This document shows, one piece after another, positions 1-10,164 of a DNA stretch of 64,000 nt. The position numbers were made by a program, and so were the translations under genes. Each line of letters starts with the position of its first letter. The first letter of the stretch is position 1. A model generated the notes under the pieces. That model saw only the letters and a program-made list of their open reading frames with translations. It was not told the DNA's origin and searched no databases. Origin of the DNA: Trypanosoma brucei (Eukaryota); contig CH464491.1 of assembly GCA_000002445.1 (NCBI GenBank), positions 3,648,001 through 3,712,000 on the forward strand. Direction: 5' to 3'.

Positions 1-500
1 GGGATCTGTAGAGAAGGATCCGTATGTCGGCCGGACGTCACTTAAGATGGGACGCGCCGTAGGTGCCGCCACGTCGCGGTTATGTGGAGACCAGAGCAAA
101 CGCAAGTCACGTAACGGAATTTGGGAGAAGTTTTATTCGTGGGAGAAACGTATAGAGTAAGTACTGACCGGTTGTTCTTTCAGGTCTTAAAGATGTATAA
201 CTGATGCATAGACACGGAGCGCGAGCGGGTGCTTGCGTACTTGCTGGCTTGTTTCCTGAAAAAAAAACACATTTTCACCGCTTTAGGGGGGATGTTTCTG
301 GTGTTTGTCCTCTTTTTTTTTTTGTAGAAAAGTCCCTTCCCATATATTTTTAAAAAAACCTACTTGTCACCCAGCGACCTTCTTCCTATTTCAGTGTTTT
401 GTTTACTTCAATTGTTGTTGTAGTTTTACTTTCCCATACTCTGTACAGTTTTCTTTGTTTTGAGCCCCACTCAATTCACTTGTTGCGATGCTGAGCTTTG

Positions 501-532
501 ATTTTTTTTTCTTCTTGCTCCTTCTTTCCTGT
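501..532 (+). promoter_or_regulatory. Polypyrimidine tract upstream of the first CDS; candidate trans-splicing/polyadenylation signal with AG dinucleotides downstream (~570) before the ATG at 605
   Basis: T/C run (ttttttttcttcttgctccttctttcctg) seen directly. Role as a spliced-leader acceptor signal is inferred from the general trypanosomatid rule (polyY followed by AG). Confidence 0.35.
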
Positions 533-604
533 TTATATTCTATTCGTGATACGTTACACCGCTTTGTGGAGGGGAGCCCGTGTCGGGTTGTGGGCCAGAA
601 GACG

Positions 605-1564
605 ATGTTAGGGTCCCTACCGAGTGTCGTTCTTGTTACCGGTGGAGCAGGCCTTGTTGGACGAGCTGTTGAGGTCGTGACGAAGCGAAACGCGTGCGCA
701 GATGAGCGTTGGGTTTTTCTCTCCCGACATGACGCCGACCTTCGCTCCATGGCGGCCACGAGGTGCGTTTTCGAAAGGCACAAGCCGACGCACGTTCTTC
801 ATTTGGCAGCGAGGGTGGGTGGGCTTTTCAAAAATATGGCTGCTCCTGTCGAAATGTGGATTGACAACGTCTCCATAAACAATAACGTGCTGGAGTGCTG
901 TCGCACGTATGGCGTGCGGAAGGCAGTTTCATGTTTGTCCACTTGCATATTCCCTGAAAGAGCAACATATCCAATAGGAGAAGAAACACTCCATGATGGC
1001 CCACCGCACTACTCAAATGAGCAGTACGCGTATGCCAAGCGTATGATTGATGTATTGAATCGTGCCTACAACAAAGAGTACGGCTGCCGCTTCACCTCAG
1101 TTATACCAACGAATGTTTATGGCCCCCACGACAACTACAATCTGCAGGATTCTCACGTTATCCCTGGGCTCATTCATAAGTTCTATTTGGCGAAACGAGA
1201 AAATAAACCTATGGTTATTATGGGTACTGGAAGGCCGCTGCGGCAATTTGTGTATAGCGAAGACTTGGCCGAGCTTATTGTCTGGGTGCTGCGTCACTAT
1301 GATGAGGTGGAGCCAATTATTCTGTCGGTGGATGAGTGTGATGAGTTATGTATTGCCGACGTTGCGAAACTCATTGCCCAGTCAATAGGGTTTACGGGCA
1401 ATATCGTCTTTGACCCAAGCAAGGCAGACGGTCAGTATCGCAAGACAGCAGACAATGCTAAGCTACGCCGCTATTTGCCAGATTATAGGTTCACCCCAGT
1501 GGCGGAAGGTATCCAACGTTCCGTCGAATGGTTTATCGCTAACTACGATGTCGCACGGAAGTGA
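605..1564 (+). CDS. GMER: GDP-L-fucose synthase (GDP-4-keto-6-deoxy-D-mannose 3,5-epimerase/4-reductase, extended SDR family)
   Basis: The ORF track starts at 488, but the first 39 codons are translated poly-T/low-complexity. The first plausible ATG is at 605, directly preceding the Rossmann motif VLVTGGAGLVGRAV. The catalytic YxxxK of SDRs is present (YAYAK). Overall length (~320 aa) and motif order fit GMER/FX proteins. Confidence 0.85.
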   Translation: MLGSLPSVVLVTGGAGLVGRAVEVVTKRNACADERWVFLSRHDADLRSMAATRCVFERHKPTHVLHLAARVGGLFKNMAAPVEMWIDNVSINNNVLECCRTYGVRKAVSCLSTCIFPERATYPIGEETLHDGPPHYSNEQYAYAKRMIDVLNRAYNKEYGCRFTSVIPTNVYGPHDNYNLQDSHVIPGLIHKFYLAKRENKPMVIMGTGRPLRQFVYSEDLAELIVWVLRHYDEVEPIILSVDECDELCIADVAKLIAQSIGFTGNIVFDPSKADGQYRKTADNAKLRRYLPDYRFTPVAEGIQRSVEWFIANYDVARK

Positions 1565-1870: not shown

Positions 1871-2714
1871 AAATGAAGCACTTTTACCTCGGACATCGAG
1901 TCATAAAAAATTAAGGAAAAAAGGAATGGCCCCAAAGTCTGCTACAAAGTCTGCTGCCGCTACCAAGGCGTCTGCACCGAAAAATGATCCCAAGAAGAAC
2001 GCCCCGAAAGCTGCAGCACCCAAACCAGCAGCAACTGCGCCGAAGGCTGCTGCCGCAAAGGAGGCGAAGGCACGCCCCGCTGCCGGCACCCACAACGGTG
2101 TGTATGTGAAGAACTGGGGTCAGGGTTCCGTTACTGACGCCACAAGGATCTTCAGTGCTGCTGGCAAGGTTGTCAGTGCTCAGATCCGTCGGCGCCGCTA
2201 CGCCATTATCTTCTTCGAGAACGCCGCAGCCGTGAGGAAGGCGATTGATCTATTCAATGAAAAGGAGGTACTTGGCGCTAAAGTGACCGTAAGCCCTGCC
2301 AAAACCAGCCCGAAGCCTGACCCGCATGAGGGCTCTTCCGTTGTGTTCCTGTCGCCCATCTTCCGTACGTCGACAACGAATGGGCAAATTCGTGAACTCT
2401 TCACCGGTATGAGAGTTTTGCGCATTCGGACGTACCATCAGAACTATGCTTACGTGTACCTTGACTCGGCTGCTGCAGCGCAGAAGTTTGTGAAGGAGAA
2501 GAACGGCACCGAGTTCCGCGGCAAGAAGCTACGTGTGGCTCTTTCAACTCGCTCGCTTCAGAAGGAAAAGGACCGTGCGGAGCGCGCGAACCTCCTCTCG
2601 GATGCCCACAACTTCAAGAAGGATGCCAAGAAGGACATCAAGAGGGATGATAAGAAGGATCCAAAGAAGGATTCAAGGAGGAATGAAAAGAAGGATGCCA
2701 AGAGGAAGCAGTGA
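1871..2714 (+). repeat. Copy 1 of a dispersed/tandem duplicated unit (about 50 nt of 5' flank plus the whole CDS); near-identical to 3957-4842
   Basis: Direct comparison: cacttttacctcggacatcgagtcataaaaa... (1871) versus cactttcacctcggacatcgagtaataaaaa... (3957). From the shared KNDPKK codons to the stop, the coding sequences are identical apart from one substitution (cat/cgt at ~2447 versus ~4567). Similarity ends exactly at the stop codons. Confidence 0.9.
1926..2714 (+). CDS. NRBD1: Nucleolar 5S rRNA-binding RRM protein, p34-like (shorter paralogue)
   Basis: N-terminal Ala/Pro/Lys-rich histone-H1-like segment (APKSA...KAAAPKPAATAPKAAAAKEAK). Two RRM-like cores follow (VYVKNWGQGSV..., VVFLSPIFRTSTTNGQIRELF..AYVYL). 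The C-terminal tail has (KKDx) repeats. This three-part architecture and the presence of a twin copy 2 kb downstream differing by an 18-aa insert match the described T. brucei p34/p37 pair (from memory). Confidence 0.8.
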   Translation: MAPKSATKSAAATKASAPKNDPKKNAPKAAAPKPAATAPKAAAAKEAKARPAAGTHNGVYVKNWGQGSVTDATRIFSAAGKVVSAQIRRRRYAIIFFENAAAVRKAIDLFNEKEVLGAKVTVSPAKTSPKPDPHEGSSVVFLSPIFRTSTTNGQIRELFTGMRVLRIRTYHQNYAYVYLDSAAAAQKFVKEKNGTEFRGKKLRVALSTRSLQKEKDRAERANLLSDAHNFKKDAKKDIKRDDKKDPKKDSRRNEKKDAKRKQ

Positions 2715-3034
2715 GTTCGTCTTCATTTTTTATCGAATGCTCAGGGTAAAACGTTAATATTTGTTTTATTTATTTATTTTCCGTCGTAGCGTTTATCTGG
2801 TTTGTAGTACCTTCGTGACTATTATTCCCGTTTCTGAAGCAACGCAGTTTTGTAATGGGAGTTTCGATGAGCTAGCTGTTTGCGGTACACACTACACTTT
2901 TTTTCGTTTGCCTCAGTCTTGCGGCCAGAGTGCTGAACCGAGAAAGCTCAAGGAAGTTATTCTCGGTCGTGTGAATGTCACTTCCCTTGTCTTTAGGTTA
3001 GTTATTTTTACCCCTTTCCTCATCAAAAAGCCAT

Positions 3035-3793
3035 ATGCTGCTGAAAAAGTTGCCGGTTTTTGTCGGTACGGAGTTTTTGACCGACGCGCATCTGGCCATA
3101 ATGACTTCAGGAGGTGTTTCTATACCGCTAGAAATGGAAAGCAGGTGCAAAGAACTTCATCCTAACCATCGGGTACCGTACGTTCTTTCACGTCTGGCGG
3201 CTTCTTCTGCCCTATCGACTGTTCTGGGAAAACCTATTACCTTTTCCGGTAGTCGTCACGATGCAGAACAGTACGATGCAAATCTCTCCCTTTCTCACGA
3301 AGACTTTGTTGGGGCTGCAGTGGCTTGGCGGAAGGGAACGTCAAATGCCATTGGTATTGACGTGGTTGATGTGCAGCAGCTTGAACGCGTTGTAAAGCGC
3401 TTCCCGCAGTTTGCTGCGCGTTTCATGCCTCGCTGCGATCTCAGCGCTCTGAGTTCCGTTGATGCGTGTAATATTGAGCGAACTTTCCGTGGTCACGCCG
3501 ACCAGGTTACTGTTACGTTGTCTCAGCACTGGGGTTTGCGTGAATGTTGTGTCAAACTTGTTGGCGTTGAGGGCCGCACGTTTCCTTTTGAGTGTTTCCG
3601 TGGTCCTCGTGCTTATTTTCCCGACCGTTTCAAGGCACAAGTGGTGGAGGAAGGCTCTGATGCTTTGCGGGCTGCAGGCTTGAATTCCAGTCTATTTGTC
3701 TCAACTTGGCCCGAGCTTTTGAAACTACCCTCCGGGGATGTTAAACCATATATCGTAGTCGTGGCTGCGTGCCCCCGTAAGAGTGCCGTTTAA
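3035..3793 (+). CDS. 4'-phosphopantetheinyl transferase, Sfp-type (holo-ACP synthase-like)
   Basis: The GIDVVDV motif matches the PPTase G-x-D signature. The downstream WGLRECCVKL resembles the (W/F)(S/C)xKE(S/A)xxK motif of Sfp-type PPTases. Size (~250 aa) is appropriate. The gene lies between the two p34/p37 copies. Start codon choice (3035) is uncertain. Confidence 0.6.
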   Translation: MLLKKLPVFVGTEFLTDAHLAIMTSGGVSIPLEMESRCKELHPNHRVPYVLSRLAASSALSTVLGKPITFSGSRHDAEQYDANLSLSHEDFVGAAVAWRKGTSNAIGIDVVDVQQLERVVKRFPQFAARFMPRCDLSALSSVDACNIERTFRGHADQVTVTLSQHWGLRECCVKLVGVEGRTFPFECFRGPRAYFPDRFKAQVVEEGSDALRAAGLNSSLFVSTWPELLKLPSGDVKPYIVVVAACPRKSAV

Positions 3794-3956
3794 CAGGGAG
3801 TTGTTCCGCTTATATTTGCTTTGTGTTGCGACACCGAAGTGGTGATGTGGCCTGTAAATGGTACAAACATCAGTTTCATAACATTGTCTTTGAGGCGGTA
3901 CGACTTTTTAATTTTCGCCTTATTGTTGTTTCTTGATGCCCTTTAGCAAGTAAGCA

Positions 3957-4842
3957 AAACACTTTCACCTCGGACATCGAGTAATAAAAAGCAAAGGAAA
4001 GAATGGCCCCAAAGTCTGCTGCAAAGCCTGCGGCTTCCGGTAAAAACGCACCCGCTCCAAAATCAGCACCTGCTGCAAAGTCTGCTCCCCCCGCCAAGGC
4101 GTCTGCACCGAAAAATGATCCCAAGAAGAACGCCCCGAAAGCTGCAGCACCCAAACCAGCAGCAACTGCGCCGAAGGCTGCTGCCGCAAAGGAGGCGAAG
4201 GCACGCCCCGCTGCCGGCACCCACAACGGTGTGTATGTGAAGAACTGGGGTCAGGGTTCCGTTACTGACGCCACAAGGATCTTCAGTGCTGCTGGCAAGG
4301 TTGTCAGTGCTCAGATCCGTCGGCGCCGCTACGCCATTATCTTCTTCGAGAACGCCGCAGCCGTGAGGAAGGCGATTGATCTATTCAATGAAAAGGAGGT
4401 ACTTGGCGCTAAAGTGACCGTAAGCCCTGCCAAAACCAGCCCGAAGCCTGACCCGCATGAGGGCTCTTCCGTTGTGTTCCTGTCGCCCATCTTCCGTACG
4501 TCGACAACGAATGGGCAAATTCGTGAACTCTTCACCGGTATGAGAGTTTTGCGCATTCGGACGTACCGTCAGAACTATGCTTACGTGTACCTTGACTCGG
4601 CTGCTGCAGCGCAGAAGTTTGTGAAGGAGAAGAACGGCACCGAGTTCCGCGGCAAGAAGCTACGTGTGGCTCTTTCAACTCGCTCGCTTCAGAAGGAAAA
4701 GGACCGTGCGGAGCGCGCGAACCTCCTCTCGGATGCCCACAACTTCAAGAAGGATGCCAAGAAGGACATCAAGAGGGATGATAAGAAGGATCCAAAGAAG
4801 GATTCAAGGAGGAATGAAAAGAAGGATGCCAAGAGGAAGTAA
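3957..4842 (+). repeat. Copy 2 of the duplicated unit (5' flank plus CDS); contains a 54-nt insertion relative to copy 1
   Basis: See copy 1. The insertion is in the Ala/Pro/Lys-rich region (about 4021-4100). Confidence 0.9.
4003..4842 (+). CDS. NRBD2: Nucleolar 5S rRNA-binding RRM protein, p37-like (longer paralogue carrying the 18-aa N-terminal insert)
   Basis: 279 aa versus 262 aa for the upstream copy. Extra segment ...KPAASGKNAPAPKSAPAAKSAPPAKA... within the APK-rich N-terminus. The rest is identical apart from one His/Arg difference (RTYRQNY versus RTYHQNY). Confidence 0.8.
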   Translation: MAPKSAAKPAASGKNAPAPKSAPAAKSAPPAKASAPKNDPKKNAPKAAAPKPAATAPKAAAAKEAKARPAAGTHNGVYVKNWGQGSVTDATRIFSAAGKVVSAQIRRRRYAIIFFENAAAVRKAIDLFNEKEVLGAKVTVSPAKTSPKPDPHEGSSVVFLSPIFRTSTTNGQIRELFTGMRVLRIRTYRQNYAYVYLDSAAAAQKFVKEKNGTEFRGKKLRVALSTRSLQKEKDRAERANLLSDAHNFKKDAKKDIKRDDKKDPKKDSRRNEKKDAKRK

Positions 4843-5093
4843 AAAAGATATGCTTGCTTTTTCCTTTTTTCTTTTCTGTTCTTAAATATAAAAAAATATT
4901 TGTTAAGTTAATACTTTTTTACGTATTGAAAGCAGCGATGTTTTGTGTTCCCCGTTCATATAGGCTCCTGTGGATGCTGGTTATTTCGGGTTCCGGGACT
5001 TGTACTTCTGTTTTCTTTTTTGTCCTGTTTTCCTTTCTTCCTGCAATGACGCAAACAGCAAAGACAAGTGGTCTTCATCGAAGGTAACGAGTT

Positions 5094-5957
5094 GTGTCCG
5101 ATTGTGGCGTTATGGCAGGTTTCACCGAGACACCCAGTTGGCCTTCGCTGTCGTGTGAGCAATCCAGCGCGGCCGCTGTGTCGGTCTCGTACTCACCTTT
5201 TGTAGTAGAAATGTCGTACTATACCATTGCTATCCAGGCGTATAGCATGACAAGGTATGTTGTTGAGAATTTGAGGCTGGACTCGGCGGTGGTTGGAACT
5301 GCAATGACGTACTGGCACATATTTGTGTCTGTGCATGGTTTGAAGAAGGTTGATGAGATTGTTCTTAGTGCTGCGTGTACTTTTTTGGCGAGCAAGGTAG
5401 AGCACCACAAGGTGCGGCTGAGCGATATCGTTGCCCTTGTTTTCGAGGTAGACCCTGTCGGAGGTGTGATGGAGTCTTGGCGTGATGTGGTTGGTCAAGC
5501 AGAGTTGCTCCTGTGCTACACGCTGAAGTTTAATTTTCAGGTCATACATCCTGTCAATCGTATTAACGAGTTAGTTTTTGATGGTAACAAAGCTGTTTTG
5601 GAGTGTGCACAACGCCTTTTTCTTCTGTCGTTTGTAACCCCTTTGTGCACGAGAGCTTCGGCCGAGGAAATTGTAGAGGCCCTCGTGTATTTGGCGGCAG
5701 ATGGGGCAGAACGCCTGGAGGTTTATGCGAATGGCTTTAACATCACTTCGTCTGAGCGGCGTGATGGCATTATCAGTGTTATGCTTGACGCCCTTGTTGC
5801 CATGCGTAAGACCACCAAGTTACCCAAAATAGATAATGTGATCTCTGCGCGACGTAAAAGACTTCGTGAACAGGAGTCCACTAGGCCGTCGGTTGCCTGC
5901 TCTAGTGTTGGAACGGCAAGTACGGATAATACACCTTGTGCACCATCGGTGGAGTGA
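5094..5957 (+). CDS. Cyclin-domain protein (transcription-type, cyclin C/K/L-like)
   Basis: Cyclin-box-like segment MTYWHIFVSVHGLKKVDEIVLSAACTFLASKVEHHKVRLSDIV, with the conserved A-x-x-LA-(S/A)-K-x-EE pattern. True start may be an internal Met (for example MSYYTIAIQ...). The N-terminal 40 aa of the ORF are of doubtful coding character. Confidence 0.7.
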   Translation: MSDCGVMAGFTETPSWPSLSCEQSSAAAVSVSYSPFVVEMSYYTIAIQAYSMTRYVVENLRLDSAVVGTAMTYWHIFVSVHGLKKVDEIVLSAACTFLASKVEHHKVRLSDIVALVFEVDPVGGVMESWRDVVGQAELLLCYTLKFNFQVIHPVNRINELVFDGNKAVLECAQRLFLLSFVTPLCTRASAEEIVEALVYLAADGAERLEVYANGFNITSSERRDGIISVMLDALVAMRKTTKLPKIDNVISARRKRLREQESTRPSVACSSVGTASTDNTPCAPSVE

Positions 5958-6417: not shown

Positions 6418-9400
6418 ATGCGTTTTCCTAGCGGCTCCTTAGCTGCATACCCATTGGAGACATACATGGTTGTACCCGGTGAGAGGGCGTTAGAAGTATC
6501 AGTCTGTCCCACTGGAAGTTATGCTGCTTTACTGTCTGGAGGGCATCTACATTTTTTAACGTGCAACACCGATGTCGTAGTTATCGGCTCCGTGTCGATT
6601 TGTAATGCGATGGGCGATAAGGACTATGCAACTCACTTCTTATGGCACCCTTTGGGTGAGCAGCTAGTTGTTTCAACTTACCATGGTCGGCTGCTTTATT
6701 TTAACGTGGCTATTGATGTTCACCGTGAGAGGTGCCTGACTCAGGTGTATCGTGTCAACTCTCTTCCCATTGGATGCGCGGCGTCGTGTGTGCCCCTTAC
6801 AAATGAAGTGCATTTGGAGGGTGACGCTGTGGTTTCTTTAGTTTCTGCTGGACATCACTGCTTCTTCGCGTGTACCGCAACTGGCCTTGTTCGCGTGCTC
6901 GGGTGGTTCAAGAAGAACTTACTACATACCTATGATGCTAACTTTCTTAGCGGTGGGTTACATACATTTTCCGGCTTGGATGCTGCCTGTAGAGAACATA
7001 CGAGCAAGGACTTGTGTGCTGGCGGCACGCCAATCACATCTATCGCCATACTTGATATTTGTTATTCCTGCCAACTAGAGTTGACGGGGTTGTTGTTGTC
7101 TAGTGGACAATTTCTGCTTGCGAATTCTTCTGCGGGTGATGACTTTTCGTGCGACAACGTGGTTTTCAATGGCGTGTGTGTTGCGTCAGCGGGCACTAGC
7201 CGCGTGTGCATAAACCCGAGGCATCCGTTGGCAGTACTGGCTACGCCCACGGGTGAGCTCGAATGCAAACGAATAAGTGACGATCTTTCATTGACGGTGT
7301 TTTGGATTGATGTGAAGTGTGTTACAAGCGATGAATACCGAGGTTCCATTCGTTGTATGGTGTGGACAGACGATGGTGAAATGCTGTGCGTTGGCTACAA
7401 CCAGTCTGGCATTATGGTTCTACACTATAGTGGCATCTGTGTTTACTCTTCTCATGTTGCTGAGTACCCGCGACAGCACGGTTTGCGTCCTGCGATTGGT
7501 ATAGAGGGTTGCGCTTCCCTCTCATGGTGTGGAAACCAGCTGCTTATAGTGGATCCACGTGGATTGGCCTTGACGGTACTTGGTTTCAGCAAGGTTGTTT
7601 CATCTCCCTGTGCTGAAGCGACGGCCATGTTCACTCCCGCCTGCACCCTTGACGGCTCTAAATTGCGCTTTATAGAACAACAACATACGGATGGATCGTT
7701 GGCTTTTAGTGACACGGTACTTTTGAATCCGCGGTATGCGGTGGAGAATAACCCCATAACATACGGTGCCATAAGCAGCGACGGCAGCGTTGTAGCCTTG
7801 GCGGGAAGGAATGGTTTTCTACTATTTGACCGGTTAGCGCGGCGGTGGCGAACTATGCGCGATAGAAAAGAAGAACGTGAGTTTACTTGCGTGGCTCAAC
7901 CCGTATGGGTGAAGGATCTGATGGTGGTTTTTCCCGTCCGATTGGAAAGAACGCACGAGTATGAACTGCGCGTATACAACAGGGTTTTATCCAAGGGTGC
8001 TATGCTGGTGCGTATGCCTCTTCAGAATAAACCGTTGCGTCTCAGCGAGTGCCACGATGAGGACGGTGATGTTTTCGTGCATTTATTTGACGACTCAGGC
8101 ACTCTCCTCGTGTGGAGGTGCGTATTGTCATCCACGTATCCACATGCAAAGCACAACCTTGAGGTTTCGCTCAAGTTGGTAAAGCGTGTACCGTTGCCCC
8201 GAATGTTTCGTAACCCAGTTAACATGATGGCGATTCATCCAGCGAGGTTAAGCGCGTACAGGACGACATCTTCCCCATGTAAATTTCGGGGTAATCGTGA
8301 CGAGGCGCTTCTGCCCTATGTATTGTTTGTTGTGAGTGGCTCGAATGCCTTGATCGCTCTCGACCTCAACGCGGTAATGAACAGGGTGAGTGTGCGAGTG
8401 GCATCCGAGCCACTGGTCCCACTCACAACAATTTTTCCATCTGGGCTGTTTCACTTATGGGTCGACTACACGGCGCCTTTGGATGGCGCTGTTCTTCTTG
8501 CAGTGAGTGATCGGGGTGTGAGTATCTTGCACCTGTCGTTAGACACCAGTGGTGGTGTTACCTCTTCGCTGTGTGTAAACGAGTACCGTGTGGGCGATAG
8601 CACCGATCCAATTTTAGCTCCTGTAGGGCTCTCAGCGTACGATGGGTGTCTTCTCACTGCGTTTGCAGATGTGGATGCTTCCCAGCAAACTCTTAGCTCT
8701 GTGTCTCATTTTTCGGTGCGAACAGTTGTTGTGCCCTCTATGTACAACTACCGTGTCCTGGGGGAAGTGATTGCTCTTCGGTCAAAGATATCAAGTTCCA
8801 TTACGAAGGGACCAATCGGAGGGGCATCTGTTCAATCCGTTTCTTTCCCATGGGATGAGCGGGTGTTGTGTTGGATAGAAGGAATGCGGCGCAACTCCAC
8901 ACTTGTCTGCAACGCAGACTATTTGTTATGCACTTTGATTGACAGGGAGACATCAAGTTTAAGTGATTCCGAGGACCCGTGCTCTATGCTGCGGCTCACC
9001 CTATCACTCTTACAGCGCTACCCGGAATACCATCGGATTGTTGTCAACTGTTTGCGCAAACTAGAGCTTCCTTGTTGTCCCGTTGTCGTGGACAATATCG
9101 GCTCTACCAAGAAGTTGTTCGTGAGCTGTCTTGAGGAGAGTCGACTTGAGGAAGCTGCGCATCTGTTGCACCTTATTATGGTTGATGATGGAGAGGGTGG
9201 TAAGAACGGCTCGTTAGACACCCTACGGCAAACTTTGGTTTGCGCGACGCGCATCTTAATGCTTGCTGTGTCCTGCAAGAAGGTTCAGTTAATTTATACC
9301 TTGTTGCCGTTCATGGCTTTGATTTTCAAAGAGTTACTAGTGTCGGACGATGAAGAGCGTCTGCGCGCGTTGTTTTCTGATGCGAAGGGTCAATGCGCTC

Positions 9401-10164
9401 TCGCCGGTTTGAGAAGGAGCACAGCGAATTTATCGCTGCTTCTCGATACGGAGCAGGATTTCACTACCCTTTCGAGCCCATGGAGTTTTTCATATGACAC
9501 TTCTGAGGTTGGAATGAAAGAAATTCGATCTCTTACCACTTTCCTTGTGTCCGGAGACTCCGGCTTAAGTGAAGCACTCGAGTATGTAACAACTGACTGC
9601 TTACGCTCGGGGCGCTTACTGACGCTTTACGAGATAGTGCGCGGATTTTCTCTTTCACCCTACGGGATGATGGAACTCAAGTTAGATGAAGTGAGAGATC
9701 CACATTGTGGCGTTTCTTCGCATGGAGAAGGGAGTAGTGTGAGGGGTCACTTCCCACACCTGCCTACCCATGGTGAGTTGTTCCTCAATCTTTTCACGGG
9801 CATCCACGAGGAGTTCAGTTTAACACGTAGCCCACGTTGTGTGGGGAATGAGCTACGGCGCCATAGGTCCTCAGTTGTTGGTGCGGAGGTAGCGACCACT
9901 GATTTTACGCTGTGGACCCTAGCTCAGAGCATTTTATATTCCACCCCAGGTCTGCCAGAAACGTTGCGGCACCTCCGTGACCACTTCGCGATGTGGGATG
10001 AGTGTGTCTTAGCGATAAACATTATTCTTATGTGTTTTACTGATGTCGTTCATCAGCTGCGGCGACACTCAGAGCTAGTCCAAGCACTTCAGCATTTGCT
10101 GGTTGATGAGAGAAACTGCGGGTATAAGTCCTTTATACGGTATTGCCTTGAAAATGTAAGTTAG
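6418..10164 (+). CDS. Large conserved hypothetical protein (1248 aa); N-terminal half rich in beta-strand-like hydrophobic/aromatic periodicity (possible beta-propeller), C-terminal half helical
   Basis: A 3.7 kb uninterrupted ORF with balanced amino-acid composition and no low-complexity bias. ORFs of this length do not arise by chance. No family recognised with confidence; an RIC1-like or other trafficking scaffold is a guess only. Confidence 0.85.
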   Translation: MRFPSGSLAAYPLETYMVVPGERALEVSVCPTGSYAALLSGGHLHFLTCNTDVVVIGSVSICNAMGDKDYATHFLWHPLGEQLVVSTYHGRLLYFNVAIDVHRERCLTQVYRVNSLPIGCAASCVPLTNEVHLEGDAVVSLVSAGHHCFFACTATGLVRVLGWFKKNLLHTYDANFLSGGLHTFSGLDAACREHTSKDLCAGGTPITSIAILDICYSCQLELTGLLLSSGQFLLANSSAGDDFSCDNVVFNGVCVASAGTSRVCINPRHPLAVLATPTGELECKRISDDLSLTVFWIDVKCVTSDEYRGSIRCMVWTDDGEMLCVGYNQSGIMVLHYSGICVYSSHVAEYPRQHGLRPAIGIEGCASLSWCGNQLLIVDPRGLALTVLGFSKVVSSPCAEATAMFTPACTLDGSKLRFIEQQHTDGSLAFSDTVLLNPRYAVENNPITYGAISSDGSVVALAGRNGFLLFDRLARRWRTMRDRKEEREFTCVAQPVWVKDLMVVFPVRLERTHEYELRVYNRVLSKGAMLVRMPLQNKPLRLSECHDEDGDVFVHLFDDSGTLLVWRCVLSSTYPHAKHNLEVSLKLVKRVPLPRMFRNPVNMMAIHPARLSAYRTTSSPCKFRGNRDEALLPYVLFVVSGSNALIALDLNAVMNRVSVRVASEPLVPLTTIFPSGLFHLWVDYTAPLDGAVLLAVSDRGVSILHLSLDTSGGVTSSLCVNEYRVGDSTDPILAPVGLSAYDGCLLTAFADVDASQQTLSSVSHFSVRTVVVPSMYNYRVLGEVIALRSKISSSITKGPIGGASVQSVSFPWDERVLCWIEGMRRNSTLVCNADYLLCTLIDRETSSLSDSEDPCSMLRLTLSLLQRYPEYHRIVVNCLRKLELPCCPVVVDNIGSTKKLFVSCLEESRLEEAAHLLHLIMVDDGEGGKNGSLDTLRQTLVCATRILMLAVSCKKVQLIYTLLPFMALIFKELLVSDDEERLRALFSDAKGQCALAGLRRSTANLSLLLDTEQDFTTLSSPWSFSYDTSEVGMKEIRSLTTFLVSGDSGLSEALEYVTTDCLRSGRLLTLYEIVRGFSLSPYGMMELKLDEVRDPHCGVSSHGEGSSVRGHFPHLPTHGELFLNLFTGIHEEFSLTRSPRCVGNELRRHRSSVVGAEVATTDFTLWTLAQSILYSTPGLPETLRHLRDHFAMWDECVLAINIILMCFTDVVHQLRRHSELVQALQHLLVDERNCGYKSFIRYCLENVS

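What the first reader, a model, noticed from the sequence alone, without database searches (positions are those of the whole stretch)
1871..4842. p34/p37-type twin RRM genes with an 18-aa indel, kept identical by concerted evolution and separated by an unrelated PPTase gene
The two copies (1926-2714, 262 aa; 4003-4842, 279 aa) are identical at the nucleotide level from the shared KNDPKK codons to the stop, apart from one non-synonymous substitution (His/Arg; cat at ~2447 versus cgt at ~4567). An 18-codon insertion sits in the Ala/Pro/Lys-rich N-terminus of the downstream copy (~4021-4100). Similarity begins about 55 nt upstream of the ATG and ends exactly at the stop codons. The 3' flanks are unrelated, consistent with the two mRNAs having independent 3'UTRs. 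A phosphopantetheinyl-transferase gene (3035-3793) is interleaved between the copies, so this is not a simple head-to-tail array. The sharp identity boundaries point to ongoing gene conversion restricted to the CDS plus a short leader. The indel is the only stable difference and matches the p34/p37 (NRBD1/NRBD2) 5S-rRNA-binding pair known from T. brucei. That also pins down the likely species.
Basis: partly seen in the sequence, partly recalled or inferred. Interest (0 to 1): 0.55.

Follow-up and report, generated by a model that had tools for sequence, protein, structure and literature searches.

The report
Trypanosome p34/p37 twin genes, kept identical
These are the well-known Trypanosoma brucei p34/p37 (NRBD1/NRBD2) ribosome-assembly genes: two copies either side of an unrelated gene that keep overwriting each other's coding sequence, so the gene pair is already known and only the depth and sharp limits of the copying go beyond the papers I could search.

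Summary
The 262-aa ORF (1926-2714) and the 279-aa ORF (4003-4842) share a 746-nt block (1963-2708 / 4094-4839) with one mismatch. They also differ by a 54-nt indel and have a roughly 50-nt leader at 86% identity. Their outer flanks are unrelated.

All three ORFs match T. brucei brucei TREU927 proteins exactly: P34/NRBD1, a "hypothetical conserved" protein, and P37/NRBD2. The pair, its 18-aa difference and its 5S rRNA role are published, so this is already known.

Concerted evolution is strongly supported:
- The arrangement RRM gene, PPTase-like gene, RRM gene, cyclin gene is conserved in T. vivax, T. theileri, T. cruzi and Angomonas.
- Within each genome the copies are almost identical (pS 0-0.02); between species pS is 0.51-0.69.
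- In all five lineages identity ends at the stop codon.
- Across three T. brucei-group genomes the block has no fixed paralog-specific site, and three sites show transfer between copies.

Corrections:
- The His codon is at 2436-2438 and is seen only in TREU927.
- The leader has fixed paralog-specific differences in TREU927 and T. b. gambiense, so it appears no longer to be homogenised.
- p34 has an extra C-terminal Gln.
- The indel is flanked by an 11-nt direct repeat.

The parts
1876..1925 (+). p34 leader, the presumed 5'UTR. Similar to the p37 leader but not identical.
   Evidence: 44 aligned nt with 6 mismatches plus a 4-nt indel; z 18 against shuffles; the differences are the same in TREU927 and T. 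b. gambiense, so they are fixed per paralog. From the sequence, the first AG after the polypyrimidine tract 1813-1851 is at 1877-1878. That the similarity starts at the predicted trans-splice acceptor is my inference.
1926..2714 (+). P34 / NRBD1 coding sequence (262 aa, two RRMs, Ala/Pro/Lys-rich N-terminus, KKDX tail)
   Evidence: ORF. Pfam RRM_1, E 1.3e-11, two stretches; exact match to EAN80344.1 / Tb11.01.5570. PMC3257258 names it P34.
1963..2708 (+). Upstream arm of the homogenised block (746 nt)
   Evidence: one mismatch against 4094-4839; no fixed paralog-specific site across three T. brucei-group genomes.
2436..2438 (+). CAT His171 codon, a variant seen only in TREU927 (CGT Arg at 4567-4569 in p37)
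   Evidence: every other p34 and p37 sequence examined has Arg/G at this position.
2715..3034 (+). p34-specific 3' flank (presumed 3'UTR and intergenic region), unrelated to the p37 3' flank
   Evidence: alignment score 21 against a shuffle mean of 20.2 (z 0.3).
3035..3793 (+). Interleaved single-copy gene with a predicted 4'-phosphopantetheinyl-transferase (PPTase) fold
3957..4002 (+). p37 leader, the presumed 5'UTR
   Evidence: From the sequence, AG dinucleotides at 3945-46, 3949-50 and 3953-54 follow the polypyrimidine tract 3905-3944.
4003..4842 (+). P37 / NRBD2 coding sequence (279 aa)
   Evidence: RRM_1, E 1.4e-11; exact match to EAN80346.1 / NRBD2 and 99% to O15759.
4016..4069 (+). 54-nt (18-codon) segment present only in p37. 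It is bounded by the 11-nt direct repeat CTGCTGCAAAG at 4016-4026 and 4070-4080.
   Evidence: the repeats are exactly 54 nt apart. Deleting one repeat plus the spacer from p37 gives the p34 sequence. In T. b. gambiense the result differs from p34 only at two private SNPs and at the C-terminal codon.
4094..4839 (+). Downstream arm of the homogenised block (746 nt)
2611..2708 (+). KKDX tail with 12-nt periodicity (its twin is at 4742-4839). The other species examined lack this C-terminal extension.
   Evidence: repeat family D1; absent from the T. congolense, T. vivax, T. theileri and T. grayi orthologues. PMC4488245 describes the KKDX region.

Best explanation
The window is Trypanosoma brucei brucei TREU927 chromosome 11. 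The two RRM genes are P34/NRBD1 (upstream) and P37/NRBD2 (downstream). These are the published trypanosome-specific proteins that bind 5S rRNA and ribosomal protein L5 and are needed for 60S subunit biogenesis.

The duplication is old. The same arrangement (RRM gene, PPTase-like gene, RRM gene, cyclin gene) occurs in every Trypanosoma genome examined and in Angomonas. Despite that age, repeated non-crossover gene conversion between the two coding sequences keeps them nearly identical within each genome. A crossover between the copies would delete or duplicate the single-copy gene between them, so only conversion products persist. This last step is inferred.

The converted tract is bounded 3' by the stop codon. 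Beyond it each copy has its own unrelated 3' flank. In trypanosomes the 3'UTR is where stage-specific control of expression usually lies. [quoted passage not shown]

In T. brucei the 5' limit of the tract is the 54-nt indel. The p34 form can be derived from a p37-like form by one deletion between 11-nt direct repeats. That heterology sits only 13 nt into the CDS, so little homology is left upstream of it. As a result the indel and the leader now diverge as paralog-specific features. Both the deletion origin and this barrier effect are inferred.
For: Identity:
- Exact protein matches to TREU927 entries, and 98-99% to the original p34/p37 clones.
- Gene names, and the proteins' 5S rRNA association and role in ribosome biogenesis, from PMC3257258. 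L5 association, the 18-aa difference and stage regulation from PMC4488245.

Age of the duplication:
- The split arrangement with the same neighbours is found in T. b. gambiense, T. vivax (two contigs), T. theileri, T. cruzi (two strains) and Angomonas deanei.

Homogenisation:
- Mismatches between copies within a genome: T. vivax 0 in 1046 nt (window limited to -350) and exact identity to 426 nt upstream of the ATG; T. theileri 0 in 765 nt; T. cruzi 2 in 719 nt; Angomonas 1 in 733 nt.
- Proportion of synonymous differences is 0-0.026 among the T. brucei-group sequences and 0-0.013 between the copies in each of the other genomes, against 0.51-0.69 between species, over 214 ungapped codons.

Boundaries:
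- Identity stops within 0-6 nt of the stop codon in all five lineages.
- The T. brucei flanks are indistinguishable from shuffled sequence.

Recent exchange, from three T. brucei-group genomes:
- There are no fixed paralog-specific sites in the 746-nt block.
- p34 positions 105 and 114 carry the same genome-specific base in both copies.
- Position 129 reads C/C, C/T and T/T in the three genomes.
- N-terminal variants (AATK, APPAK, APATK) are shuffled between paralogs in different strains.

Indel: 11-nt direct repeats lie exactly 54 nt apart, and deleting one unit gives p34.

Leader: its differences are identical in TREU927 and T. b. gambiense.
Against: - No conversion event was observed directly. 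The shared polymorphisms could partly reflect sorting of old haplotypes, although those haplotypes would themselves need exchange between copies.
- Outside Trypanosoma the arrangement varies. Leptomonas has both copies downstream of the PPTase-like gene, and Leishmania and Phytomonas have a single copy. The age of the duplication beyond the genus is therefore uncertain, and some independent duplication or loss must have happened.
- The claim that the distinct 3'UTRs cause the stage difference, and that the indel acts as a barrier to conversion, are inferences. T. cruzi keeps identity across a 24-nt indel.
- T. congolense genomic context could not be retrieved.
Confidence: 0.9

Rival explanations
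1. The copies are identical because each lineage duplicated the gene recently and independently. On this view there was no ancient duplication followed by conversion.
For: Leptomonas pyrrhocoris has a different, directly tandem pair that is identical over the CDS plus about 100 nt on each side, which looks like a young duplication. Leishmania and Phytomonas have only one copy.
Against: This would need an independent insertion of a copy into the same intergenic slot, between the epimerase gene and the PPTase-like gene, in T. brucei, T. vivax, T. theileri and T. cruzi, and upstream of the PPTase-like gene in Angomonas. In every lineage the duplicated segment would also have to end at the stop codon. 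The T. brucei leader has diverged 14% while the CDS has not, which does not fit a single recent duplication.
Confidence: 0.04
2. The near-identity is an assembly or annotation artefact, for example reads from one gene collapsed onto two positions.
For: Near-identical repeats are often mis-assembled. One T. brucei-group assembly (L017) did not call the p34 gene at all.
Against: p34 and p37 were cloned independently as separate cDNAs (O15758 and O15759). Two protein bands are reported (PMC4488245). The arrangement recurs in independent assemblies of seven genomes and on two T. vivax contigs. Each copy has unique flanks, and the 54-nt indel distinguishes the two.
Confidence: 0.01
3. Purifying selection alone, including selection on codon usage, keeps the two copies identical without any exchange of sequence.
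For: The proteins are abundant and essential (PMC3257258). The RRM core is conserved, with pN 0.12-0.30 between species.
Against: Synonymous sites are close to saturated between species (pS 0.51-0.69) but are 0-0.02 between the copies in one genome. In T. vivax, 426 nt of non-coding upstream sequence is also identical. Genome-specific substitutions are shared by both copies.
Confidence: 0.01

Closest known systems
T. brucei P34/P37 (NRBD1 Tb11.01.5570 / NRBD2 Tb11.01.5590; Zhang & Williams 1997; Ciganda & Williams 2012, PMC3257258)
   Same: It is this gene pair. The TREU927 proteins match exactly. It has two RRMs, an Ala/Pro/Lys-rich N-terminus, a KKDX tail and the 18-aa N-terminal segment found only in P37.
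   Different: Nothing differs at the protein level. The papers I could read do not discuss the locus structure, the interleaved gene, the conversion boundaries or the repeat-flanked indel.
Concerted evolution of tandem gene arrays in T. brucei (Jackson 2007, PMC1855330)
   Same: Duplicates cluster by species rather than by position. T. brucei and T. b. gambiense copies are interspersed. Gene conversion tracts have breakpoints near start and stop codons.
   Different: p34/p37 is not mentioned in the main text of that survey. The survey notes that duplicates separated from an array by unrelated genes tend to keep orthology, meaning they escape homogenisation. Here two copies separated by an unrelated gene have stayed homogenised across the whole genus.
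T. cruzi TcP37/NRBD and TcNRBD1 (PMC4488245, PMC5070865)
   Same: These are the orthologous pair at the syntenic locus. They also differ only by an N-terminal repeat-number indel (24 nt) and are otherwise identical.
   Different: They lack the KKDX tail. The papers treat them as 'distinct genes' or 'tandem copies' and do not note the intervening gene or concerted evolution.
Sfp-type (two-lobed) and AcpS-type 4'-phosphopantetheinyl transferases
   Different: Sequence scores are below the curated cut-offs, and only 2 of 9 orthologues reach E<0.01 against Pfam ACPS. Arg replaces the usual Lys before the catalytic Glu. No activity data were found.

Membership tests
P34/P37 (NRBD1/NRBD2) 5S-rRNA-binding proteins of T. 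brucei | Sequence identity to the cloned and annotated p34 and p37 | tested here: met
   Exact matches to EAN80344.1 (Tb11.01.5570) and EAN80346.1 (NRBD2), and 98-99% to O15758/O15759. Names are tied to P34/P37 in PMC3257258.
P34/P37 (NRBD1/NRBD2) 5S-rRNA-binding proteins of T. brucei | Two RRM domains between an Ala/Pro/Lys-rich N-terminus and a KKDX C-terminal tail | tested here: met
   Pfam RRM_1 with two stretches, E about 1e-11. The translations are and the 12-nt periodic tail. The architecture is as described in PMC4488245.
P34/P37 (NRBD1/NRBD2) 5S-rRNA-binding proteins of T. brucei | An 18-aa N-terminal segment present in P37 and absent from P34 | tested here: met
   54-nt indel at 4016-4069. 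Published in PMC3257258 and PMC4488245.
P34/P37 (NRBD1/NRBD2) 5S-rRNA-binding proteins of T. brucei | Binding to 5S rRNA and L5, and a requirement for 60S biogenesis | not testable with these tools
   Taken from the literature only (PMC3257258, PMC4488245).
Concerted evolution by gene conversion | The duplication predates speciation (shared synteny) while the paralogs group by species | tested here: met
   The same split arrangement occurs in 5 lineages.
Concerted evolution by gene conversion | Synonymous divergence between paralogs far below that between orthologues | tested here: met
   pS 0-0.02 within a genome against 0.51-0.69 between species.
Concerted evolution by gene conversion | A sharp identity block with unrelated flanks | tested here: met
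   The 3' edge is at the stop codon in five lineages.
Concerted evolution by gene conversion | Lineage-specific substitutions shared by both copies, or mosaic variants between closely related genomes | tested here: met
   Sites 105, 114 and 129 across three T. brucei-group genomes. Shuffled N-terminal variants. This rests on only three informative sites.
Concerted evolution by gene conversion | Direct observation of a conversion event, with a rate and a tract length | not testable with these tools
   Needs marked-copy experiments or population resequencing.
4'-phosphopantetheinyl transferase superfamily (interleaved gene 3035-3793) | Score above the curated family cut-off (Pfam PF01648 ACPS / TIGR00556) | tested here: not met
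   19.2 bits against a cut-off of 25. 24.6 bits against a cut-off of 45.35.
4'-phosphopantetheinyl transferase superfamily (interleaved gene 3035-3793) | The PPTase alpha/beta fold | tested here: met
   [not shown]
4'-phosphopantetheinyl transferase superfamily (interleaved gene 3035-3793) | Conserved metal- and CoA-binding motifs: G-x-D near the start of the catalytic lobe and (W/F)-x-x-(K/R)-E-x-x-x-K | tested here: met
   IGIDVVD (D109, D112) and W166-G-L-R169-E170-C-C-V-K174 are invariant in 9 orthologues. HMMER aligns the first motif to residues 2-33 of H. pylori AcpS. The motif definition comes from my knowledge of the family, not from a tool.
4'-phosphopantetheinyl transferase superfamily (interleaved gene 3035-3793) | Transfer of phosphopantetheine from CoA to a carrier protein | not testable with these tools
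   No experimental paper was found.

The most novel reading that the evidence does not exclude
The most novel reading is about the locus, not the proteins. On this reading the P34/P37 locus is a long-lived 'one protein, two regulatory contexts' design. Two coding sequences separated by an unrelated single-copy gene have been kept identical by non-crossover conversion since before the radiation of Trypanosoma. The tract is pinned at the stop codon in every lineage, so each copy keeps a private 3'UTR.

In T. brucei a single deletion between 11-nt repeats then created an isoform difference. Because it lies at the very edge of the tract, it also sealed the 5' end off from conversion.

This would be a clear counter-example to the view that duplicates separated from an array by unrelated genes tend to escape homogenisation in trypanosomes.
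Probability: 0.55. Interest if true: 0.35.

Novelty: already known. Interest (0 to 1): 0.2.

Why it matters
The gene pair and its 18-aa difference are established. P34 and P37 are studied as parasite-specific, essential ribosome-assembly factors and as possible drug targets.

What this check adds is context. The two proteins are in effect one protein sequence. The only stable differences are the N-terminal 18 residues, one C-terminal Gln and the untranslated regions. Functional differences between P34 and P37 should therefore be sought in those places.

The locus is also a clean natural example of gene conversion working across an intervening gene with boundaries fixed at the stop codon. That is useful for people who study gene dosage and post-transcriptional control in organisms that lack promoters for individual genes.

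Tried and rejected
- A profile of the nine orthologues against PDB sequences gave only a spurious match to a designed DPBB protein. Single-sequence phmmer gave only a weak hit to H. pylori AcpS, E 0.35.
- Bodo saltans as an outgroup for synteny was uninformative. Its RRM gene lies between a DEAD-box helicase gene and an ORF unrelated to the PPTase-like gene, and the contig ends there.
- An exact look-up of the TREU927 p34 gene position returned nothing, so the window could not be aligned to the TREU927 chromosome record. Strain assignment rests on exact protein matches and the private His171.
- No T. congolense contig was available. Only its protein could be compared.
- Searches for Tb927.11.14010 and for a characterised T. 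brucei PPTase found nothing relevant. PMC2620753 is not held.
- Rfam found no RNA family anywhere in the window, so no snoRNA or other known RNA explains the conserved leader.
- I considered unequal crossing-over as the homogenising mechanism and rejected it. It would delete or duplicate the interleaved gene, and no genome with the split arrangement shows that.
Full report
**1. Observation**

The region holds three + strand ORFs: 1926-2714 (262 aa), 3035-3793 (252 aa) and 4003-4842 (279 aa).

A local alignment of 1700-2900 against 3780-5000 gives three blocks:
- Block 1: 1876-1919 against 3957-4000, 44 nt with 6 mismatches.
- Block 2: 1924-1938 against 4001-4015, 15 nt with no mismatches.
- Block 3: 1939-2708 against 4070-4839, 770 nt with 6 mismatches.

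Five of the six mismatches in the last block lie in 1944-1962. From 1963/4094 to 2708/4839 there are 746 nt with a single difference, A at 2437 against G at 4568. This is CAT His171 against CGT Arg189.

The downstream copy carries 54 extra nt (4016-4069). After the last shared Lys codon, p34 reads CAG TGA and p37 reads TAA.

The flanks are unrelated:
- The 3' flanks (2715-3034 against 4843-5093) score 21 against a shuffle mean of 20.2 (z 0.3).
- The sequence upstream of -50 gives z 0.6.
- The 50-nt leader gives z 18.

The His codon is at 2436-2438, not about 2447. The insert is 4016-4069. Similarity starts at -50/-46, not -55. p34 has one extra Gln codon.

**2. Identity**

Both RRM ORFs and the middle ORF are exact matches to T. 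brucei brucei TREU927 proteins:
- EAN80344.1, Tb11.01.5570 (262 aa)
- EAN80345.1, 'hypothetical protein, conserved' (252 aa)
- EAN80346.1, NRBD2 (279 aa)

The best database hit is O15759, the original T. brucei 'RNA binding protein' clone, at 99%. PMC3257258 states that P34 is NRBD1/Tb11.01.5570 and P37 is NRBD2/Tb11.01.5590.

The same laboratory's papers state three things:
- The main difference between the proteins is an 18-aa N-terminal stretch in P37.
- The proteins are otherwise almost identical.

Pfam finds RRM_1 with two stretches in each protein. The gene pair, its indel and its function are therefore already known, and the species inference is right.

Aligning five T. brucei-group p34 and p37 proteins shows that His171 occurs only in TREU927 p34. 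All the others have Arg. It is a strain variant, not a difference between paralogs.

**3. Is it concerted evolution?**

I fetched the orthologous loci.

- The order RRM gene, PPTase-like gene, RRM gene, cyclin gene is present in T. b. gambiense, a third T. brucei-group assembly (GCA_003543875.1), T. vivax (two contigs), T. theileri, T. cruzi (two strains) and Angomonas deanei.
- In the Trypanosoma species the upstream neighbour is the same epimerase gene and the downstream genes are the same (cyclin, then RIC1 in every locus where it was called). In T. vivax the epimerase gene is not called but is detectable by tblastn.
- Leishmania major and Phytomonas have a single RRM copy after the PPTase-like gene. 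The L. major 389-aa ORF matches the PPTase-like profile with 100% hhalign probability.
- Leptomonas pyrrhocoris has two directly adjacent copies after the PPTase-like gene.

Within each genome the two copies are almost identical at the nucleotide level:

| Genome | Mismatches between the two copies |
|---|---|
| T. vivax | 0 in 1046 nt (window limited to -350); exact identity reaches 426 nt upstream of the ATG |
| T. theileri | 0 in 765 nt |
| T. cruzi | 2 in 719 nt, plus a 24-nt indel in the N-terminal repeats |
| Angomonas | 1 in 733 nt |
| Leptomonas | 0 in 705 nt |

Over 214 ungapped codons the proportion of synonymous differences is 0-0.026 among the T. brucei-group sequences and 0-0.013 between the copies in each of the other genomes. 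Between species it is 0.51-0.69.

A duplication shared by synteny across the genus, with paralogs that are identical within species and saturated between species, is the classical signature of concerted evolution. It rules out purifying selection alone and makes independent recent duplication very unparsimonious.

**4. Is conversion still going on in T. brucei?**

I compared both copies from three T. brucei-group genomes.
- The 746-nt block has no site that separates p34 from p37 in all three genomes.
- Two sites carry the same base in both copies of a genome but differ between genomes: A/A and G/G in TREU927 against G/G and A/A in the other two. These are p34 positions 105 and 114 (window 2030/4161 and 2039/4170).
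- One site (position 129; window 2054/4185) reads C/C, C/T and T/T in the three genomes. This is the expected picture of a variant being copied from one paralog to the other.
- The cluster of five differences at 1944-1962 is private to TREU927 p34. T. b. gambiense p34 carries the p37 version there, and the O15759 p37 clone carries a hybrid, APATK. So the 5' end of the tract moves between strains.

This rests on only three informative sites, but it is consistent with continuing exchange.

**5. Boundaries**

At the 3' end, identity stops within 0-6 nt of the stop codon in T. brucei, T. vivax, T. theileri, T. cruzi and Angomonas.

The 5' end varies: about -34 to -57 in T. cruzi, T. theileri and Angomonas, and -426 in T. 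vivax. In T. vivax the identical stretch includes the last 28 nt of the PPTase-like CDS, copied to a position just after the epimerase stop codon.

In T. brucei the leader is only 86% identical. Its six substitutions and 4-nt indel are the same in TREU927 and T. b. gambiense. They are fixed, paralog-specific differences, so the leader is not currently being homogenised.

My reading, which is inferred, is that non-coding homology at the tract edges erodes until it reaches sequence held in place by selection. In T. brucei the 54-nt heterology, only 13 nt into the CDS, leaves too little homology upstream for a conversion tract to resolve there.

Similarity starts close to the first AG after each polypyrimidine tract (1877-78; 3945-54; sequence). 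The similar segment therefore probably corresponds to the 5'UTR, but this was not tested against transcript data.

**6. The indel**

The 54 nt are bounded by an 11-nt direct repeat, CTGCTGCAAAG, at 4016-4026 and 4070-4080. The two copies of the repeat are exactly 54 nt apart.

Removing one repeat plus the spacer from p37 gives the p34 sequence. In T. b. gambiense the result differs from p34 only at two private SNPs and at the last codon. A single deletion or slippage event between short repeats is therefore the simplest origin of the P34 form. This is inferred.

The available orthologue sequences from T. congolense, T. vivax, T. theileri and T. grayi lack both this segment and the KKDX tail. 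Both features look specific to the T. brucei lineage.

**7. Mechanism**

An unequal crossover between the copies would delete or duplicate the single-copy gene between them. No genome with the split arrangement shows either outcome. Homogenisation must therefore come from non-crossover gene conversion, or else crossover products are removed by selection. This is inferred.

The private 3' flanks fit established knowledge that trypanosome gene regulation is mostly post-transcriptional and driven by the 3'UTR, and they fit the published stage bias of P34 and P37. The causal link was not tested.

**8. The interleaved gene**

Sequence evidence for a PPTase is weak:
- Pfam ACPS scores 19.2 bits against a cut-off of 25, and only 2 of 9 orthologues reach E<0.01.
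- TIGR00556 scores 24.6 bits against a cut-off of 45.35.
- Several orthologues are nevertheless named holo-ACP synthase or PPTase by their sources.

Structural evidence is better:
- An AF2 model built from nine orthologues has pLDDT 81.6 and pTM 0.82.
- Foldseek against the PDB found nothing.
- The motifs IGIDVVD and W-G-L-R-E-C-C-V-K are invariant, and the first aligns to the N-terminus of H. pylori AcpS.

I accept 'PPTase-fold protein, probable PPTase', with activity untested. No paper on it was found.

**9. Comparison with what is known, and novelty**

The pair is the published P34/P37. Concerted evolution of T. brucei tandem duplicates is a described general phenomenon (PMC1855330).
- That paper's main text does not mention p34/p37.
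- The T. cruzi papers note only that the copies cluster by species or are 'tandem'.
- PMC1855330 remarks that duplicates separated from an array by unrelated genes tend to retain orthology. This locus does the opposite.

I could not find the following in the searchable library: genus-wide homogenisation across an intervening gene, the stop-codon boundary, and the repeat-flanked indel. They are modest additions to a known system, not a new kind of thing.

**Verdict**

Novelty is 'already known' and interest is low (0.2).

Noticed in passing
L003:7575-8000 vs L003:9808-10233 (T. vivax): In T. vivax the two copies are identical for 426 nt upstream of the ATG. The identical stretch includes the last 28 nt of the PPTase-like CDS, which reappears just after the epimerase stop codon. 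The tract therefore spans the whole upstream intergenic region, unlike in T. brucei.
   Followed up: partly
L014:4734-8705 (Leptomonas pyrrhocoris): The arrangement is different here: PPTase-like gene (391 aa), then two directly adjacent RRM copies. The copies are identical over 705 nt of CDS plus 100 nt upstream and 106 nt downstream. This suggests a separate or rearranged duplication in this lineage.
   Followed up: partly
L006:6152-8708 (L. major) and L015:6726-8747 (Phytomonas): Only one RRM copy is present, directly after an ORF at the PPTase-like position, and no epimerase gene is called upstream. The L. major ORF (389 aa) matches the PPTase-like profile and carries long insertions. The Phytomonas ORF (346 aa) was not tested against the profile.
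   Followed up: partly
L003:6674-7564 (T. vivax): An epimerase orthologue (70% identity by tblastn, E 2e-156) is present but is not among the called genes for this assembly.
   Followed up: no
L017:2419-3207 (GCA_003543875.1, T. brucei group): The p34 ORF is intact (262 aa, with two private substitutions, F to L and A to T) but is not among the called genes. The epimerase gene upstream is called only as a 117-aa fragment.
   Followed up: no
window 2611-2708 and 4742-4839: The C-terminal KKDX tail is built from 12-nt periodic repeats. It is absent from the T. congolense, T. vivax, T. theileri, T. grayi, T. cruzi, Leishmania and Angomonas orthologues examined, so it looks like an extension specific to the T. 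brucei lineage.
   Followed up: partly
window 488-1564, 5094-5957, 6418-10164: The neighbouring genes are an NAD-dependent epimerase/dehydratase (Pfam E 1e-54), a cyclin-like protein (weak Cyclin_N hit, E 4.9e-05) and a 1248-aa RIC1-family protein. Their order is conserved across the Trypanosoma genomes examined where these genes were called.
   Followed up: no
[not shown]
   Followed up: yes
window 1-64000: No Rfam family reaches its gathering score anywhere in the 64-kb window.
   Followed up: yes
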